From Dictyostelium discoideum (Eukaryota): 64,000 nt of DNA. A model generated the notes under the pieces. That model searched no databases. It saw only the letters and a program-made list of their open reading frames with translations, and was not told where the DNA came from. The DNA is taken from contig CM000155.2 in the NCBI GenBank assembly GCA_000004695.1, forward strand, positions 800,001 to 864,000. Direction: 5' to 3'. A program made the position numbers and the translations under genes. Each line of letters starts with the position of its first letter. Positions within the stretch are counted from its first letter, which is position 1. Shown here piece by piece: positions 44,628 to 63,700 of this stretch.

Positions 44628-45631
44628 ATGGGTATGACATTCTATTTGTTGATTTTACATGACGCTCATATTAATAAAAAAATAAATAAATAAATAAAAC
44701 TAAATTTAATAATAATAATTATTATCTCTATCAATCTTTAATGAGGAATAAAGATTGAAAAAAGATATTGATAATGGATTGATAAAATAATAATATGTAT
44801 TAACTTATGATTTTCATTTTAATAGGTATTTCTCGTGACGCTCTCCACAAACATAGACTTACAGGTAAGTTACACTTTAAAATATATAAACATTCACATA
44901 GAACCATTTCTAATAATAATTTAATTTAATTTATAGGTGCTGCGTATGTATTTTAATTTTAGGTTTTAGGATTTTAGTATAATATTGTGGATTTTAGGAT
45001 GTGTTGAAGATTGGATATTAATTTAAACTTTTTTTATAAATTTAGCCGTAAATGTAACTACAAAAAGAGAAAGTATGAGTTAGGTAGACAAGCTGCCAAA
45101 ACAAAGATTTGCTCTCAAGGTGAAGAAAAGCGTGTTAGATCAATCAGAGTTCGTGGTGGTCACCAAAAATTCAGAGCCTTAAGACTCGATACTGGTAATT
45201 TCTCATGGGCCACCGAAAAGATCACCCGTAAATGTCGTATCCTTAACGTCGTTTACAATGCCACCTCTAACGATTTAGTCCGTACCAATACCCTCGTTAA
45301 AGGTTCAATCGTCCAAATTGATGCCACCCCATACAAACAATGGTATGAAACTCACTACGGTGTTGTTGTTGGTAAAAAGAAATCCGCCAAAAAGGACGGT
45401 GAAGCTGAACAAGTTGTCAAGAAATCCGCTTCTCTCCTTGCCAAACTTGCCTCAAGAGCTAAGGGTAGAGTTTTAGATTCAGCCATCGAATCACAAATCG
45501 GTGAAGGTCGTTTCTTTGCTCGTATCACCTCAAGACCAGGTCAAGTCGGTAAATGTGATGGTTACATCTTAGAAGCTAAGGAATTAGAATTCTACCAAAG
45601 AAGACTCCAAAAGAAGAAATCTGCCAAATAA
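44628..45631 (+). CDS. rps8: 40S ribosomal protein S8 (eS8). Four exons including a 7-nt micro-exon: join(44628..44631,44826..44864,44937..44943,45046..45631), 211 aa.
   Basis: ATG+G then GTATGA. Exon 2 [14 protein letters not shown] then GTAAGT. Micro-exon GTGCTGC (AA) then GTATGT. Exon 4 [21 protein letters not shown] ... [15 protein letters not shown] ... [22 protein letters not shown]. Colinear with human RPS8 ([31 protein letters not shown] ... RALRLDVGNFSWGSE ... [22 protein letters not shown]). Confidence 0.85.
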
Positions 45632-59157: not shown

Positions 59158-59228
59158 GCGTATGTGGTCTAGTGGTATGATGCATCCCTGCCACGGATGC
59201 GAACTGGGTTCGATTCCCAGCATACGCA
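59158..59228 (+). tRNA. tRNA-Gly (anticodon GCC)
   Basis: Acceptor stem is 7 bp (GCGTATG/CATACGC) plus discriminator A. A-box is TGGTCTAGTGG. Anticodon stem CATCC/GGATG with loop CTGCCAC. T-arm CTGGG-TTCGATT-CCCAG contains the B-box GGTTCGATTCC. CCA is not encoded. Confidence 0.9.
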
Positions 59229-59520: not shown

Positions 59521-60854
59521 ATGAATTCCTACGCAGACGCGGCTAAAATGGCCAACCCCTCCACCCATATGGACGAGGCATCGGAGAACTTCATTAAGGA
59601 ATTCTCCACAAAAACAGCAGAGATAAAGGAAACTTACCCCAAACTATCAATAGGCCTCAAAGACATCTCCAAATACTGCGAGACCATATTGAACATGACT
59701 GCGCTCTCAACCTACGAGAAGAACAACGGATTCTACCCAATTACACTCGAATTCCCCAAAATGGATCTCAAGGGGTTAGAAGAAATGAGAAAAACACTCT
59801 CAAACTACGATATCCCAATCGACAAGATATACATAGGCAAAGGAACTAGAAAAATGATCCACCTGATGATTAAAAAAGAACAATCTCTCCTAAATATCAT
59901 TAGAGATAGAAGCAAATTGGGAACCTTCATCACCTCCAGTAGAGACTTCCACGTTCTCACAGGAAGAGTAAGAATTCCCAGAGAAAAGGCAGGAATAGTG
60001 GACGCCCTCATCAAAACTGCCTTTGCAGAAGAAATACCCTATGCAATATACAATACTATATACTCCACCGACCACCTCATAGTATTCGGTCTAATAGAAT
60101 GCAAAATAGGCGATCAAATGAAATCTGGCCAACACATTACAGAAATCGCAAACTTTACCATCAGAACGGCCACCAAAACCTACTCCTCACAAAAGAAAAA
60201 CAAGAAAGTAGAGACAAACAACACGGAGGAACCATTACCATCAGAACGGCCACCAAAACCTACTCCTCACAAAAGAAAAATAAGAAAGTAGAGTCAAACA
60301 ACACGGAAGAACCATTAGAAGATGAGATGACAGATGATCCTCCCAACATCCAAAACAGGATAGCAATCAAATCCTCTCAACCAAAACCACAACAACAAAC
60401 AAACAACCCAGCAAACAATAAGTCTGATAAACAATCAACCCAAGAGAAAAAAGCCCAATCAAAAAAGTCCTCTCAACCTCTTCCCCCCAAAAACCAAGCA
60501 GAATCTCAATCTGTCAAACCCACCACAACCACTACCACAACATCCAACGCCATCCAAAAAGACAATGCCAACAAAACGAGCACTAACATCCATTCATCCT
60601 CGGAAAACAGAGAGAAGACACCAAACATCCCTCCATCACATAAACGCAAGAACGAGGAAATCCACTCAAACAACGAGGTCACCCAACTCTCACCAACAAT
60701 AAACAGAAGCAACCCTTACATCCCATCCACCCCTAAGACACCTGTCAAAAAAGAAAGGAAAGGAATCATTGAGAGCTTCATAGAGAGTATCTACCCTTCA
60801 CCATCCAAACCGCAGCTATACGACTCCCAAGAGGAGATCGATATCATCTCATAA
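59521..60854 (+). CDS. TRE3-like ORF1 (nucleic-acid-binding/Gag-like protein), frameshifted by an 80-bp tandem duplication (60158..60237 = 60238..60317)
   Basis: ORF 59521..60291 and ORF 60099..60854 overlap in different frames and share the duplicated peptide TIRTATKTYSSQKKNKKVE(T/S)NNTEEPL. Removing one 80-bp copy restores a single about 418-aa ORF. Confidence 0.7.
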
Positions 60855-63700
60855 TGGTAGTAATCAAAATCAACCAATGGAATGTCAGAGGTTGGGGCAC
60901 TGACACCTCCTTCAAAAACAAAACAGACTTTATCAAATCCCAATCCCCCCCAAACTCATTGGCACTAACCATAGTCAATGAACTCAACGCCGACGCAACA
61001 CAAGCACACCAGCTATTTCCTGGCTCCATCATTAGCGCAACCAACAGAGGCAACGGAATAGGAATACTAAACCACAACAACCAAAACATAAAACTCTCAC
61101 CAATATTCATAATAGAAGGTAGACTAATAATATCAGACATTCTAATAAAAGATACCACAACGAGAATCTTGGCCATATACGCCCCGGCCCAACCTGATAA
61201 AAGAAAAATACTAGCTTCAACACTAAACAAACACTTCAACAACCAATACCACAACCTAACGTCTAACCCTAAAAAAAACATCGACATCATAGCAGGCGAC
61301 TTCAATTGTTTAGACTTCAATGACAATCACACATCAAATGATGACCAAGGCAACTTGACAACACAATCCCCAGATGAGATGGCCACAGTAATCGAAGCCA
61401 TCAGAATTTCAAATAACCTAATGGATATGGACCAACTAAATAAAAGACCCACCTTCTCAAGAACGATACACAACACAAACAATAACCTCACAAGAATCTT
61501 GGAAAGGAGACTAGACAGAATATACCTTAACAATAGCTTAATCAACTACAGCCAATTATACTTAAGGAACCTAATCCCCCCAAAAATTAACGACATACCT
61601 CTATCAGATCACAACTTCCTATCAACCACTTTCACTCTACCCAACATACAGATGAACAAGCGCAGATGGAGATTAAAAAAATCCTCAATCCTCTCAAGCA
61701 TAATGCTTAAGAAAATAGACTTCCTACTTAACGATTATTCAAGGGAGCTGTCATCCAACCATAACTCTATTTCCTTCTCTCAACTCAACAGCTTACTGAA
61801 CAAAATAAAACAACTATACACCGAATTTCAAAAACAAAACGACTACAACAATAAGGCAAACATCAAAAATCTAATCTCCCTACTAGAGACAGAATTTAAA
61901 GACCAAGCCTTCGCAACCCTTTCAGCAATAAATGAATCTAAAAAAAGAGAAGAACAACTTAAACAAGAATTGAACAACTATTGCGAAGAAACCTCACTCA
62001 AGTACATCTCCGCGAGAATCAAGAAAAGACACAATGATTTCACCATCAACGCAGTAAAAGATGCACAAGGTAGAACAATTAACAAACAGGAATTGATCGA
62101 AGAAGAATACGTAAAATATTACTCAAATCTTTATGACTACAAAGAAGATGACCCACTATCTCATTACGAAATGTTGGAAAATTGGACAGTGACCAGGGAC
62201 TCAACATGGGACAACCTTGAAAATGAATTCACCTCACAAGAAATCCTAGAAGTAATAAAACAACTGAACCCACACAAATCTCCAGGTCCAGATGGAATTC
62301 CAAACTTATTCTACATAACACACAAAGAAAAACTAGCTCCAATACTGGCCTCAGCATTCAACGACACTCTAAGAAATCCTCATCTAATTAGCAAAAATTA
62401 CAAAGAAGGCCTCATTATCACGATACCTAAAAAGGGAGACCCCGAACTAATCAAAAACAGAAGACCAATTACACTGGCTAACTGTATATATAAAATCCAC
62501 TCAAAGCTAATAAACAATAGAATAATCCCAATACTAACGAAAGTGATCAACCACAATCAAAAAGGTTTCGTACCAGGCAGATTCATTATAGATAATATCA
62601 TATCAATGAACGAATTAATCAACTATTGTAATGATAAAAGAATTAACGGAATAATTACACTATATGATTTCGAAAAAGCTTTTGACTCGATCTCACACGG
62701 TTCAATACTCAGATCACTACAACACATCAACATTCCAACCAATATAATCAACCTGATAATGAATCTACTCACCAAATCTGAAGCAAGAATTGAAATTAAT
62801 GGTAGAACTACTATACCCTTTGAGATCAAAAGAGGAGTTAAACAAGGAGATCCACTATCACCCACCCTGTTCGTCCTTGTAATAGAGGCTTTAGCTAGAA
62901 AAATTTTACAAGATGACCGAATTACTGGCCTTCCTCTAAACAACAGCAACCACAGAGAGAAATTCCAAAGCTTTGCAGACGACTCGGCTTCAATGGTCCC
63001 AGACTCTCAACAACTTGAATTAGTACTACAACACTTCAATTCATTTTGCAAAGCCACCTCCTCAAAACTTAACATCGACAAATCTTCATCAATTCTTATA
63101 GGCAACCCAGACAATACCAACCAAAGAATTCCAATATCTACAAATCCAGAAAGATACTTGGGATACTTCTTCACAGGTAAAGGGATAACAAGAAAAATGC
63201 CAGAAATATTAAACACAATAAGATCATCCTTAGTACTATGGAAAACCACTGACTCAACAATCAAAACCAAAACCAACATCCTCAAAGCATTCGCACTCTC
63301 TAAATTAACCTACTATTCATATGTAGAGAACTTTAAGGAAGAGGAATTAAACCAAATCAATAAATTAGTCGAATGGTTTTTATCGGCACCAAACAACAAA
63401 AATGCTAGTGGATTTCAAGTTATTAATTTAATGAGAACCAAAAGAGCAAGATACCCACTAAAAGTAGGGGGCTGGAACATTTGGAATATAGAATTGAGAC
63501 AACTGGCGCAGAAACTTTGGATCATAAACCAGTTCATCCTAGCACTAGAAACCAAACAAACAAACTCATCTCATCACAAAAGCTGGGAATATCAGATCCA
63601 AAAAAACAAATTCACATCCAGATACCTAAAAGAAAACTTACGAATGGAACAAAATAAGAATAAAAAAAAGCAATCTTCAACAATAATCTCACATCCATAA
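60854..63700 (+). CDS. TRE3-like ORF2: apurinic/apyrimidinic endonuclease + reverse transcriptase
   Basis: 948-aa ORF. RT block reads ITLANCIYKIHSKLINNRI ... ITLYDFEKAFDSISHGSILRSL ... QGDPLSPTLFVLVIEALARKI ... QSFADDSASM. Confidence 0.8.
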   Translation: MVVIKINQWNVRGWGTDTSFKNKTDFIKSQSPPNSLALTIVNELNADATQAHQLFPGSIISATNRGNGIGILNHNNQNIKLSPIFIIEGRLIISDILIKDTTTRILAIYAPAQPDKRKILASTLNKHFNNQYHNLTSNPKKNIDIIAGDFNCLDFNDNHTSNDDQGNLTTQSPDEMATVIEAIRISNNLMDMDQLNKRPTFSRTIHNTNNNLTRILERRLDRIYLNNSLINYSQLYLRNLIPPKINDIPLSDHNFLSTTFTLPNIQMNKRRWRLKKSSILSSIMLKKIDFLLNDYSRELSSNHNSISFSQLNSLLNKIKQLYTEFQKQNDYNNKANIKNLISLLETEFKDQAFATLSAINESKKREEQLKQELNNYCEETSLKYISARIKKRHNDFTINAVKDAQGRTINKQELIEEEYVKYYSNLYDYKEDDPLSHYEMLENWTVTRDSTWDNLENEFTSQEILEVIKQLNPHKSPGPDGIPNLFYITHKEKLAPILASAFNDTLRNPHLISKNYKEGLIITIPKKGDPELIKNRRPITLANCIYKIHSKLINNRIIPILTKVINHNQKGFVPGRFIIDNIISMNELINYCNDKRINGIITLYDFEKAFDSISHGSILRSLQHINIPTNIINLIMNLLTKSEARIEINGRTTIPFEIKRGVKQGDPLSPTLFVLVIEALARKILQDDRITGLPLNNSNHREKFQSFADDSASMVPDSQQLELVLQHFNSFCKATSSKLNIDKSSSILIGNPDNTNQRIPISTNPERYLGYFFTGKGITRKMPEILNTIRSSLVLWKTTDSTIKTKTNILKAFALSKLTYYSYVENFKEEELNQINKLVEWFLSAPNNKNASGFQVINLMRTKRARYPLKVGGWNIWNIELRQLAQKLWIINQFILALETKQTNSSHHKSWEYQIQKNKFTSRYLKENLRMEQNKNKKKQSSTIISHP

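What the first reader, a model, noticed from the sequence alone, without database searches (positions are those of the whole stretch)
44628..45631. rps8 needs a 7-nt micro-exon (GTGCTGC); the following intron carries four tandem decoy TTTTAGG acceptors
To reproduce the conserved S8 N-terminus ([22 protein letters not shown]), the ATG+G first exon (intron begins right after ATGG, typical of Dictyostelium ribosomal protein genes) must join 44826..44864, then a 7-nt exon at 44937..44943 flanked by perfect AG|..|GTATGT signals, then 45046 onwards. Skipping the micro-exon breaks the frame. Intron 3 (44944..45045) contains the motif ttttagg four times in about 60 nt (taattttaggttttaggattttag ... ggattttaggatg) before the real acceptor (tttag|ccgt). 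These could be recursive or decoy splice sites or a splicing-enhancer array.
Basis: partly seen in the sequence, partly recalled or inferred. Interest (0 to 1): 0.5.

Follow-up and report, generated by a model that had tools for sequence, protein, structure and literature searches.

The report
Real 7-base exon in rps8
The Dictyostelium ribosomal protein S8 gene really does contain a 7-base exon, which is already part of the reference protein, and the repeated TTTTAGG motif in the next intron is a short tandem repeat that varies between strains and sits where it cannot act as a splice acceptor.

Summary
The gene model is correct. Exons 44628-44631, 44826-44864, 44937-44943 (GTGCTGC) and 45046-45631 are the only GT-AG path that gives the 211-aa product. 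That product is letter for letter the reference D. discoideum AX4 eS8 protein (XP_629872.1 / Q54E24), so the micro-exon is already annotated.

The same 4/39/7/586 structure occurs in eight further loci: D. discoideum-type assemblies (one labelled D. cf. discoideum), D. citrinum, D. firmibasis and D. dimigraforme. It is absent from D. purpureum, which has one intron 8 nt upstream of the intron 2 site. It is also absent from T. lacteum, H. album, A. subglobosum and C. fasciculata, which have no intron there.

The motif count is slightly wrong. TTTTAGG occurs three times, not four; TTTTAG occurs four times. It is a heptamer tandem repeat with 3-5 TTTAGG copies across D. discoideum-type assemblies and only one in the sister species.

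All copies lie 19-54 nt from the donor. They are upstream of a 34-nt AG-free zone that holds the branch-point-like TTAAT. Using any of them gives a premature stop.

The decoy and recursive readings are not supported. A weak role as a U/G-rich intronic enhancer cannot be excluded. The finding is of ordinary interest.

The parts
44628..44631 (+). Coding part of exon 1 (ATGG), followed by the donor gtatga
   Evidence: The ATGG|gt intron position is kept in all eight dictyostelid species examined.
44632..44825 (+). Intron 1 (194 nt). It has a branch-point-like ATTAAC at 44799-44804, 22 nt before the acceptor.
   Evidence: The first 23 nt and the AATAAAGATTGA block are conserved across species.
44826..44864 (+). 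Exon 2 (39 nt), encoding part of G2 through the first base of G15
   Evidence: It is 100% identical in all nine micro-exon-bearing loci.
44865..44936 (+). Intron 2 (72 nt). Donor gtaagt; branch-point consensus TCTAAT at 44909-44914, 23 nt before the acceptor tatag.
   Evidence: WCTAAT is the D. discoideum branch consensus in PMC2483917.
44937..44943 (+). 7-nt micro-exon GTGCTGC. It supplies codon positions G15(2-3), A16 and A17(1-2).
   Evidence: It is invariant in 8 of 9 loci; L001 has GTGCCGC, a synonymous change.
44944..45045 (+). Intron 3 (102 nt). Donor gtatgt, 19 G and 1 C, acceptor tttag.
44956..44977 (+). Heptamer tandem repeat (ATTTTAGG consensus, 2.9 copies). One more dispersed copy, GGATTTTAGG, lies at 44989-44998.
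   Evidence: TRF. There are 5.0 copies at the same place in L001, and copy number is 3-5 among D. discoideum-type assemblies.
45010..45043 (+). AG-free stretch (34 nt) before the true acceptor. It holds the branch-point-like TATTAAT (45016-45022), with the putative branch A at 45021, 24 nt from the acceptor.
   Evidence: The branch site is inferred from its position and its likeness to the consensus; it has not been mapped.
45046..45631 (+). Exon 4 (586 nt including the stop TAA at 45629-45631)
   Evidence: It is 94-99% identical across the nine loci.

Best explanation
This is the Dictyostelium discoideum gene for ribosomal protein eS8 (rps8). Its coding sequence is split 4/39/7/586 nt, and the 7-nt exon is a genuine, constitutive coding exon that is already in the reference protein.

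How it is probably spliced (inferred). The two flanking introns are short (72 and 102 nt). Each has its own good donor (gtaagt, gtatgt), a branch-point-like motif 23-24 nt from its acceptor, and a first-AG acceptor. Each intron can therefore be recognised across itself (intron definition) and the two removed one after the other, which gets round the fact that 7 nt cannot carry exon-definition signals.

When it arose (shown). The micro-exon is present in D. discoideum, D. citrinum, D. firmibasis and D. dimigraforme. It is absent from D. purpureum, which has a single intron 8 nt upstream of the intron 2 site, and from groups 1-3, which have no intron in this stretch.

The TTTTAGG copies. They are a heptamer tandem repeat in the 5' third of intron 3 that expands and contracts by slippage (shown: 3-5 copies between assemblies). 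They lie too close to the donor and upstream of the branch region, so they are not usable acceptors (inferred from position). They are most likely neutral, or at most add U/G-rich context after a donor that has no exonic match.
For: Gene model:
- It is the only GT-AG path that gives the protein.
- The product is identical to XP_629872.1 / Q54E24, D. discoideum AX4 40S ribosomal protein S8, and hits Pfam PF01201.
- TGAARK, which spans the micro-exon, is present in all nine other dictyostelid eS8 proteins aligned, with no gap relative to outgroups.
- Skipping the exon gives a frameshift and a stop.
- The best single-intron alternative uses a poor GTTACA donor and gives TGNRK.
- The same 4/39/7/586 structure is found in eight further loci. 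The exon and its tag|..|gtatgtat signals are kept, while intron interiors have diverged to 51-56% identity.
- There is one synonymous change inside the micro-exon.
- A 72-aa partial protein, [24 protein letters not shown]..., is annotated on a 230-nt 'Salmonella enterica' contig. A bacterial annotation has no introns, so this must be an uninterrupted, cDNA-like copy.

Repeat:
- TRF finds a period-7 array.
- TTTAGG copies number 3, 3, 3, 4 and 5 in D. discoideum-type assemblies but only 1 in D. citrinum, D. firmibasis and D. dimigraforme, where the count is not above shuffles.
- Internal AGs end 19-66 nt from the donor, followed by a 24-42-nt AG-free zone in every locus.
- Every use of a TTTTAG acceptor gives a premature stop.

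Background: the D. discoideum median intron is 103 nt and the branch consensus is WCTAAT (PMC2483917). The AG-exclusion-zone logic comes from a human study (PMC1431707; seen only in the listing, not read).
Against: - I saw no transcript reads. Scans for the spliced junction in metagenome and prokaryote collections found nothing, and the DNA of the 230-nt contig could not be fetched. mRNA support is therefore indirect.
- The first ~27 nt of intron 3, with two TTTAG copies, are kept in all nine loci. So is a G-rich, C-poor composition (G 14-22, C 0-2), even in D. firmibasis, whose intron interior no longer aligns above chance. This hints at some constraint and argues against pure neutrality.
- The branch point and the order of intron removal are inferred, not measured.
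Confidence: 0.65

Rival explanations
1. The TTTAG(G) copies and the U/G-rich, C-poor 5' part of intron 3 act as an intronic splicing enhancer. They would help U1 or associated proteins find the donor TGC|GTATGT, which has no exonic complementarity and follows an exon too short to carry exonic enhancers.
For: - gtatgtatt plus two TTTAG copies within the first ~27 nt are kept in all nine micro-exon loci, whereas intron 2 keeps only its splice signals.
- G 14-22 against C 0-2 in every orthologue, including D. firmibasis, whose interior similarity to D. discoideum is at chance level (z 0.12).
- Only 0.23% of 102-nt windows in the 64 kb have G>=19 and C<=1.
- TTTAG is absent from introns 1 and 2 in all six lineage-representative loci aligned.
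Against: - The TTTAGG array itself is expanded only in D. discoideum-type assemblies. The sister species splice the same micro-exon with one TTTAGG, a count not above shuffles.
- Copy number varies from 3 to 5 between strains.
- There are no G triplets like those of the classical G-rich enhancers.
- No binding factor is known in Dictyostelium.
- The species are close relatives, so shared ancestry can explain part of the similarity.
Confidence: 0.25
2. The TTTTAG copies are decoy or alternative acceptors. They would be used for regulated unproductive splicing, for example eS8 autoregulation through transcripts with premature stops that are destroyed by NMD.
For: - Each copy matches the local acceptor look (T-run followed by AG).
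- Every use of them gives a premature stop, as expected for a regulatory unproductive isoform.
- From general knowledge, ribosomal protein genes in yeast, worms and mammals are often autoregulated at the splicing step.
Against: - With the intron 3 donor, the resulting introns would be 19, 26, 34 and 54 nt. The shortest intron seen in these loci is 58 nt.
- All copies lie upstream of the AG-free zone and of the only branch-like motif of intron 3.
- With the intron 2 donor, they lie behind the first AG after that intron's branch site.
- The array is not conserved outside D. discoideum-type strains.
Confidence: 0.05
3. The copies are recursive splice sites, at which the intron is removed stepwise through AG|GT ratchet points.
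For: One copy forms AG|GT (44961-44964).
Against: - The regenerated donor would be GTTTTA, far from GTAAGT or GTATGT.
- The other copies are AG|GA or AG|TA.
- The first step would need a 19-nt intron.
- From general knowledge, recursive splicing is a feature of very long introns; this one is 102 nt.
Confidence: 0.01
4. The micro-exon is an artefact of homology-guided annotation, and the real mRNA uses another arrangement.
For: I saw no transcript directly, and the junction scans were empty.
Against: - It is the unique GT-AG solution.
- No single-intron path gives TGAARK.
- The 7 nt and both splice signals are conserved between diverged introns in nine loci.
- An intron-free 72-aa ORF across both junctions exists on a 230-nt bacterial-annotated contig.
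Confidence: 0.03

Closest known systems
Annotated D. discoideum AX4 rps8 gene (protein XP_629872.1 / EAL61462.1 / UniProt Q54E24)
   Same: The spliced product of the window is identical over all 211 residues, including the GAA residues encoded across the micro-exon.
   Different: Nothing at the protein level. I did not see the exon table of the public record; I inferred it from the unique GT-AG solution.
Constitutive coding microexons of 15 nt or less in conserved genes, as catalogued in plants (PMC8831610)
   Same: - It is a very short coding exon that is not a multiple of 3 and is needed to keep the frame.
- It is conserved together with its splice sites.
- It is flanked by introns with U-rich and G-rich content.
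- Automatic annotation around it makes errors: two strain models lose the ATGG exon.
   Different: - It lies in an amoebozoan with very short, AT-rich introns.
- It is young, being restricted to the D. discoideum clade, rather than ancient.
- It is already correctly annotated in the reference.
- No paper in the searched library describes microexons in Dictyostelium.
Simple-sequence tandem repeats that evolve by replication slippage
   Same: Head-to-tail 7-nt units, with copy number differing between strains at the same position.
   Different: The unit happens to look like an acceptor site, and the seed (two TTTAG copies right after the donor) is kept in all species that have the micro-exon.
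Decoy 3' splice sites and recursive splice sites of animals (general knowledge)
   Same: A pyrimidine run followed by AG, repeated inside an intron.
   Different: - The copies lie upstream of the branch region and within 54 nt of the donor.
- There is no regenerated donor consensus.
- The intron is only 102 nt.

Membership tests
eS8 (Ribosomal_S8e, PF01201) gene | The product matches the eS8 family over its full length. | tested here: met
   - Exact identity to D. discoideum AX4 eS8.
- PF01201 is on record for the homologues and for the locus gene.
- E 9.4e-76 to wheat eS8 in PDB entry 4v7e.
Coding micro-exon | Internal exon of 15 nt or less, flanked by a canonical AG acceptor and GT donor. 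| tested here: met
   tatag|GTGCTGC|gtatgt at 44937-44943.
Coding micro-exon | Needed to keep the reading frame and the conserved protein sequence. | tested here: met
   - Skipping it gives a stop at codon 27.
- No single-intron alternative gives TGAARK.
- It is the unique GT-AG solution.
Coding micro-exon | Exon and splice sites are conserved in orthologues while the flanking introns diverge. | tested here: met
   Nine loci from four named species share 4/39/7/586. Introns are 51-56% identical.
Coding micro-exon | Present in the mature mRNA. | tested here: inconclusive
   The support is indirect only. The reference protein contains the residues, and a 72-aa uninterrupted ORF across both junctions sits on a 230-nt contig annotated as bacterial. 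The DNA of that contig was not retrievable, and the junction scans were empty.
Decoy or competing 3' splice sites | Pyrimidine tract followed by AG. | tested here: met
   Four TTTTAG copies at 44957-44997.
Decoy or competing 3' splice sites | Placed downstream of a usable branch point, at a workable distance from a donor. | tested here: not met
   The copies end 19-54 nt from the donor. They are upstream of the 34-nt AG-free zone that holds the only branch-like motif.
Decoy or competing 3' splice sites | Transcripts that use the sites, or bound but unproductive spliceosome parts. | not testable with these tools
   No RNA-seq or binding data were available.
Recursive splice site | An acceptor joined directly to a regenerated donor consensus (AG|GTRAGT) inside a long intron. 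| tested here: not met
   There is only one AG|GT, followed by GTTTTA, and the intron is 102 nt.
Intronic splicing enhancer next to a micro-exon | U-rich or G-rich element shortly downstream of the donor, conserved among orthologues. | tested here: inconclusive
   The first ~27 nt and the G-rich, C-poor composition are kept in all nine loci. The TTTAGG array itself is not expanded outside D. discoideum-type strains.
Intronic splicing enhancer next to a micro-exon | Removing the element lowers exon inclusion. | not testable with these tools
   This needs a minigene or genome-editing experiment.
Slippage-type tandem repeat | Head-to-tail copies whose number varies between strains. | tested here: met
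   TRF finds period 7, with 2.9 copies in the window and 5.0 in L001. There are 3-5 TTTAGG copies across five D. discoideum-type assemblies.

The most novel reading that the evidence does not exclude
The G/U-rich 5' part of intron 3, with its TTTAG(G) copies, is a cis-acting enhancer that arose together with the 7-nt exon. It would be needed for the splicing machinery of an intron-definition organism to use a donor with no exonic pairing that sits only 7 nt behind an acceptor. If so, it would be the first micro-exon splicing element described in Amoebozoa, and natural strains carrying 3-5 copies would serve as a ready-made allelic series.
Probability: 0.2. Interest if true: 0.45.

Novelty: already known. 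Interest (0 to 1): 0.2.

Why it matters
- The work confirms that the reference rps8 model is right. It also shows that the 7-nt exon is a recent product of intron gain or movement within the D. discoideum clade, which makes it a small, clean example of how a micro-exon can arise.
- The acceptor-like repeat does not need a special mechanism to explain why it goes unused.
- On the practical side, automatic models in new Dictyostelium assemblies sometimes lose the 4-nt ATGG start exon.
- A Dictyostelium cDNA fragment is filed as a Salmonella protein in a public database.

Tried and rejected
- **Direct transcript evidence.** Exact scans for the spliced junction found nothing in metagenome contigs (33-nt and 23-nt patterns) or in prokaryote genome contigs. 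The 230-nt cDNA-like contig behind WP_348243454.1 could not be fetched.
- **Protein-level evidence from a solved D. discoideum ribosome.** No chain with this sequence is in the PDB copy; the best match is wheat eS8.
- **Intron 3 as a copy of intron 1, or D. purpureum intron 2 as the homologue of D. discoideum intron 2 or 3.** Local alignments are no better than dinucleotide shuffles (z from -1.2 to 1.5 for the D. purpureum pairs; z -0.1 for intron 1 against intron 3 in the window). These ideas were dropped.
- **RNA structure bringing the splice sites together.** Exon 2 to exon 4 folds no better than shuffles (z +1.30), and neither does intron 1 (z -0.15).
- **An intron-encoded snoRNA or other known RNA.** Rfam finds only a tRNA elsewhere in the window.
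- **Single-intron gene models.** There are 14 open alternatives, and none gives TGAARK.
- **Literature on Dictyostelium micro-exons or rps8 structure.** Nothing relevant was found in the searched library.

Full report
**What is in the sequence**

The region 44628-45631 on the plus strand reads as follows:
- ATGG|gtatga, then a 194-nt intron.
- tag|GTATTTCTCGTGACGCTCTCCACAAACATAGACTTACAG|gtaagt, then a 72-nt intron.
- tatag|GTGCTGC|gtatgt, then a 102-nt intron.
- tttag|CCGTAAATGT... running to TAA at 45629-45631.

Joining 44628-44631, 44826-44864, 44937-44943 and 45046-45631 gives a 636-nt CDS and a 211-aa protein. Leaving out the 7 nt shifts the frame and gives a stop at codon 27.

**Is the gene model right?**

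- I wrote an exhaustive search over all GT...AG introns of 40-900 nt that must reproduce a given protein. For the window it returns one solution only, 4/39/7/586 nt.
- The 211-aa product is present letter for letter in the protein collection as XP_629872.1 / EAL61462.1 / UniRef100_Q54E24, '40S ribosomal protein S8 [Dictyostelium discoideum AX4]'. The micro-exon is therefore already part of the reference annotation.
- In an alignment with nine other dictyostelid eS8 proteins and three outgroups, the residues TGAARK that span the micro-exon are present in every dictyostelid. They align without a gap to TGGKRK/TGGKKK in the outgroups.
- I listed every single-intron path (GT or GC donor, AG acceptor) from exon 2 into exon 4 that keeps an open frame. 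There are 14, and none gives TGAARK. The nearest uses a poor GTTACA donor and gives TGNRK.
- One cluster member is a 72-aa partial protein, [24 protein letters not shown]...FSWA. It is labelled 'hypothetical protein, partial [Salmonella enterica]' (WP_348243454.1) and sits on a 230-nt contig. Bacterial annotation does not model introns, so this ORF must be uninterrupted across both micro-exon junctions. It is thus a contaminating Dictyostelium cDNA-like fragment.
- That fragment is the only transcript-type evidence I could reach. Its DNA was not retrievable, and scans for the spliced junction in metagenome and prokaryote collections were empty.

**Comparison with relatives**

I fetched the genomic loci of the orthologues and solved their structures in the same way.
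- Eight further loci have the same 4/39/7/586 structure: four D. discoideum-type assemblies (L001, L011, L012, and L013, which is labelled D. cf. discoideum), two D. citrinum (L002, L003), D. firmibasis (L009) and D. dimigraforme (L010). The L013 model simply misses the ATGG exon.
- Exon 2 is identical in all nine loci, and so are the first 30 nt of exon 4. The micro-exon is GTGCTGC in eight and GTGCCGC in L001, a synonymous GCT-to-GCC change. tag|...|gtatgtat is kept everywhere.
- The introns themselves are only 51-62% identical. With the splice-site ends trimmed, D. discoideum against D. firmibasis intron 3 is no better than shuffled sequence (z 0.12). Seven conserved bases with their splice signals, sitting between two diverged introns, is the expected signature of a real exon.
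- D. purpureum (L004) is 4/31/601. It has one intron in this area, 8 nt upstream of the D. discoideum intron 2 site, and GGTGCTGCT is continuous with the rest of the exon.
- T. lacteum, H. album, A. subglobosum and C. fasciculata have no intron between the ATGG intron and codon 70 or later.
- The micro-exon therefore arose within the D. discoideum clade after it separated from D. purpureum. I found no sequence evidence that the new introns derive from intron 1 or from the D. purpureum intron.

**The TTTTAGG copies**

- The count is three, at 44957, 44964 and 44992. The copy at 44972 is TTTTAGT, so TTTTAG occurs four times.
- The motif is not enriched in the window as a whole (18 matches against 22.9 expected). 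The local cluster, however, is far beyond shuffles of the intron (TTTAGG 3 against 0.28, none of 1000 shuffles reaching 3).
- Tandem Repeats Finder calls a period-7 array at 44956-44977 (2.9 copies). At the same place in L001 it.0 copies.
- Across D. discoideum-type assemblies the TTTAGG count is 3, 3, 3, 4 and 5. In D. citrinum, D. firmibasis and D. dimigraforme it is 1, which is not above shuffles.
- The array is thus a slippage-type tandem repeat that expanded in the D. discoideum lineage and still varies between strains.

**Can the copies act as acceptors?**

- Measured from the intron 3 donor, the four AGs end at +19, +26, +34 and +54. The shortest intron seen in any of these loci is 58 nt.
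- In all nine loci the last 24-42 nt before the true acceptor are free of AG. In the window this zone (45010-45043) holds TATTAAT. Its second A (45021) lies 24 nt from the acceptor.
- That spacing matches intron 2 (TCTAAT, A at 44913, 23 nt) and intron 1 (ATTAAC, A at 44803, 22 nt).
- The published D. discoideum branch consensus is WCTAAT/WCTAAY, with a median intron of 103 nt and intron A+T of 89% (PMC2483917).
- The rule that the first AG after the branch point is used, which leaves an AG-exclusion zone, was established for human introns (PMC1431707; I saw it only in the listing and did not read it). I apply it here by inference.
- On that logic the TTTTAG copies are on the wrong side of the branch site for intron 3, and behind the first AG for intron 2.
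- Every hypothetical use of them gives a premature stop, with or without the micro-exon.
- Recursive splicing is also out. Only one copy forms AG|GT, the regenerated donor would be GTTTTA, and the first step would need a 19-nt intron.

**What remains open**

- Intron 3 is not featureless. In all nine loci it starts gtatgtatt and carries two TTTAG copies in the first ~27 nt. It is G-rich and almost free of C (G 14-22, C 0-2), and it ends with a conserved gattggatattaat block in most loci.
- Introns 1 and 2 contain no TTTAG at all in the six lineage-representative loci aligned.
- Only 0.23% of 102-nt windows in the 64 kb match G>=19 and C<=1.
- The micro-exon donor (TGC|GTATGT) has no exonic match to the usual AG|GT context. 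A modest enhancer role for the U/G-rich start of intron 3 is therefore plausible, and I give it about one chance in four.
- Against it, the sister species make do with a single TTTAGG, the copy number varies freely, and no G triplets or known factors are involved.
- No RNA structure signal was found, and no known RNA family lies in the gene.

**How it most likely works**

- Shown: the exon structure, its conservation, the repeat nature of the motif, and its position relative to the AG-free zone.
- Inferred: each short intron is recognised across itself, and the two are removed one after the other. A 7-nt exon cannot be bound at both ends at once (the argument is summarised in PMC8831610).
- Also inferred: the branch sites and the neutrality of the repeat.

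**Novelty and verdict**

The gene model is already public, and micro-exons of this size and smaller are well known in other eukaryotes. I found no paper on micro-exons in Dictyostelium. The new pieces are small:
- The lineage-restricted origin of the exon.
- The different intron position in D. purpureum.
- The strain-variable repeat.

Interest is low to moderate.

Noticed in passing
window 44632-44654 and 44731-44758 (intron 1): The first 23 nt of intron 1 (gtatgacattctatttgttgatt) are almost invariant across four species, far more than a donor site needs. A 10-bp hairpin, TCAATCTTTA-ATGAGGAA-TAAAGATTGA, is identical in most D. discoideum-type loci and, apart from a loop change, in D. firmibasis and D. 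dimigraforme. In L001 and D. citrinum the 5' arm is broken without compensating changes, while the 3' half AATAAAGATTGA stays invariant. It therefore looks like a conserved sequence element rather than a structure.
   Followed up: partly
L004 1501-2480 (D. purpureum rps8): D. purpureum has a single intron at CDS position 35/36, whereas D. discoideum has introns at 43/44 and 50/51. That makes three different intron positions within 16 nt in close relatives, and none in groups 1-3. Whether this reflects intron movement or independent gain is not resolved, because no sequence similarity is left.
   Followed up: partly
protein P0125 (WP_348243454.1), not in the window: A RefSeq 'Salmonella enterica' partial protein on a 230-nt contig is the exact N-terminal 72 residues of D. 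discoideum eS8. It is most likely a contaminating Dictyostelium cDNA read in a bacterial assembly.
   Followed up: partly
L013 1501-2329; proteins P0123 and P0127: Two automatic gene models in new Dictyostelium assemblies miss the 4-nt ATGG start exon. They start instead at an ATG inside intron 1 ([11 protein letters not shown]..., 216 aa), while still including the 7-nt exon.
   Followed up: yes
L006 2640-2703 and L008 2800-2839: The H. album and C. fasciculata eS8 models carry odd C-terminal tails (for example ...KKKNYIYKLIGFNLQFKQNDHFVP) made by an extra 3' intron. The tails have no counterpart in other species, so these are probably annotation errors.
   Followed up: no
L005 1505-1604 (T. 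lacteum intron 1): Intron 1 of T. lacteum rps8 contains ttataggattataggtttaggattgaatagg, a TAGG-type repeat much like the D. discoideum intron 3 array but in a different intron. The local alignment to D. discoideum intron 3 has z 2.9, with 2% of shuffles as good. This may be chance, or it may reflect a shared tendency of these introns.
   Followed up: no
window 59158-59228 and 59521-63700: A tRNA gene (Rfam, 63.6 bits) is followed about 300 nt downstream by same-strand ORFs. One is a 948-aa ORF with a reverse transcriptase domain (PF00078, E 4.6e-34), in a stretch of raised G+C (36-40%). From memory, this looks like one of the tRNA-gene-targeted non-LTR retrotransposons of D. discoideum.
   Followed up: partly
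L005-L008 flanks compared with window 44628-45631 and loci L001, L002, L003, L009-L013: In T. lacteum, H. album, A. subglobosum and C. fasciculata, rps8 lies next to an rpl24 (PF01246) gene. In D. discoideum-type assemblies, D. citrinum, D. firmibasis and D. dimigraforme the upstream neighbour is instead an FR47-like acetyltransferase gene.
   Followed up: no
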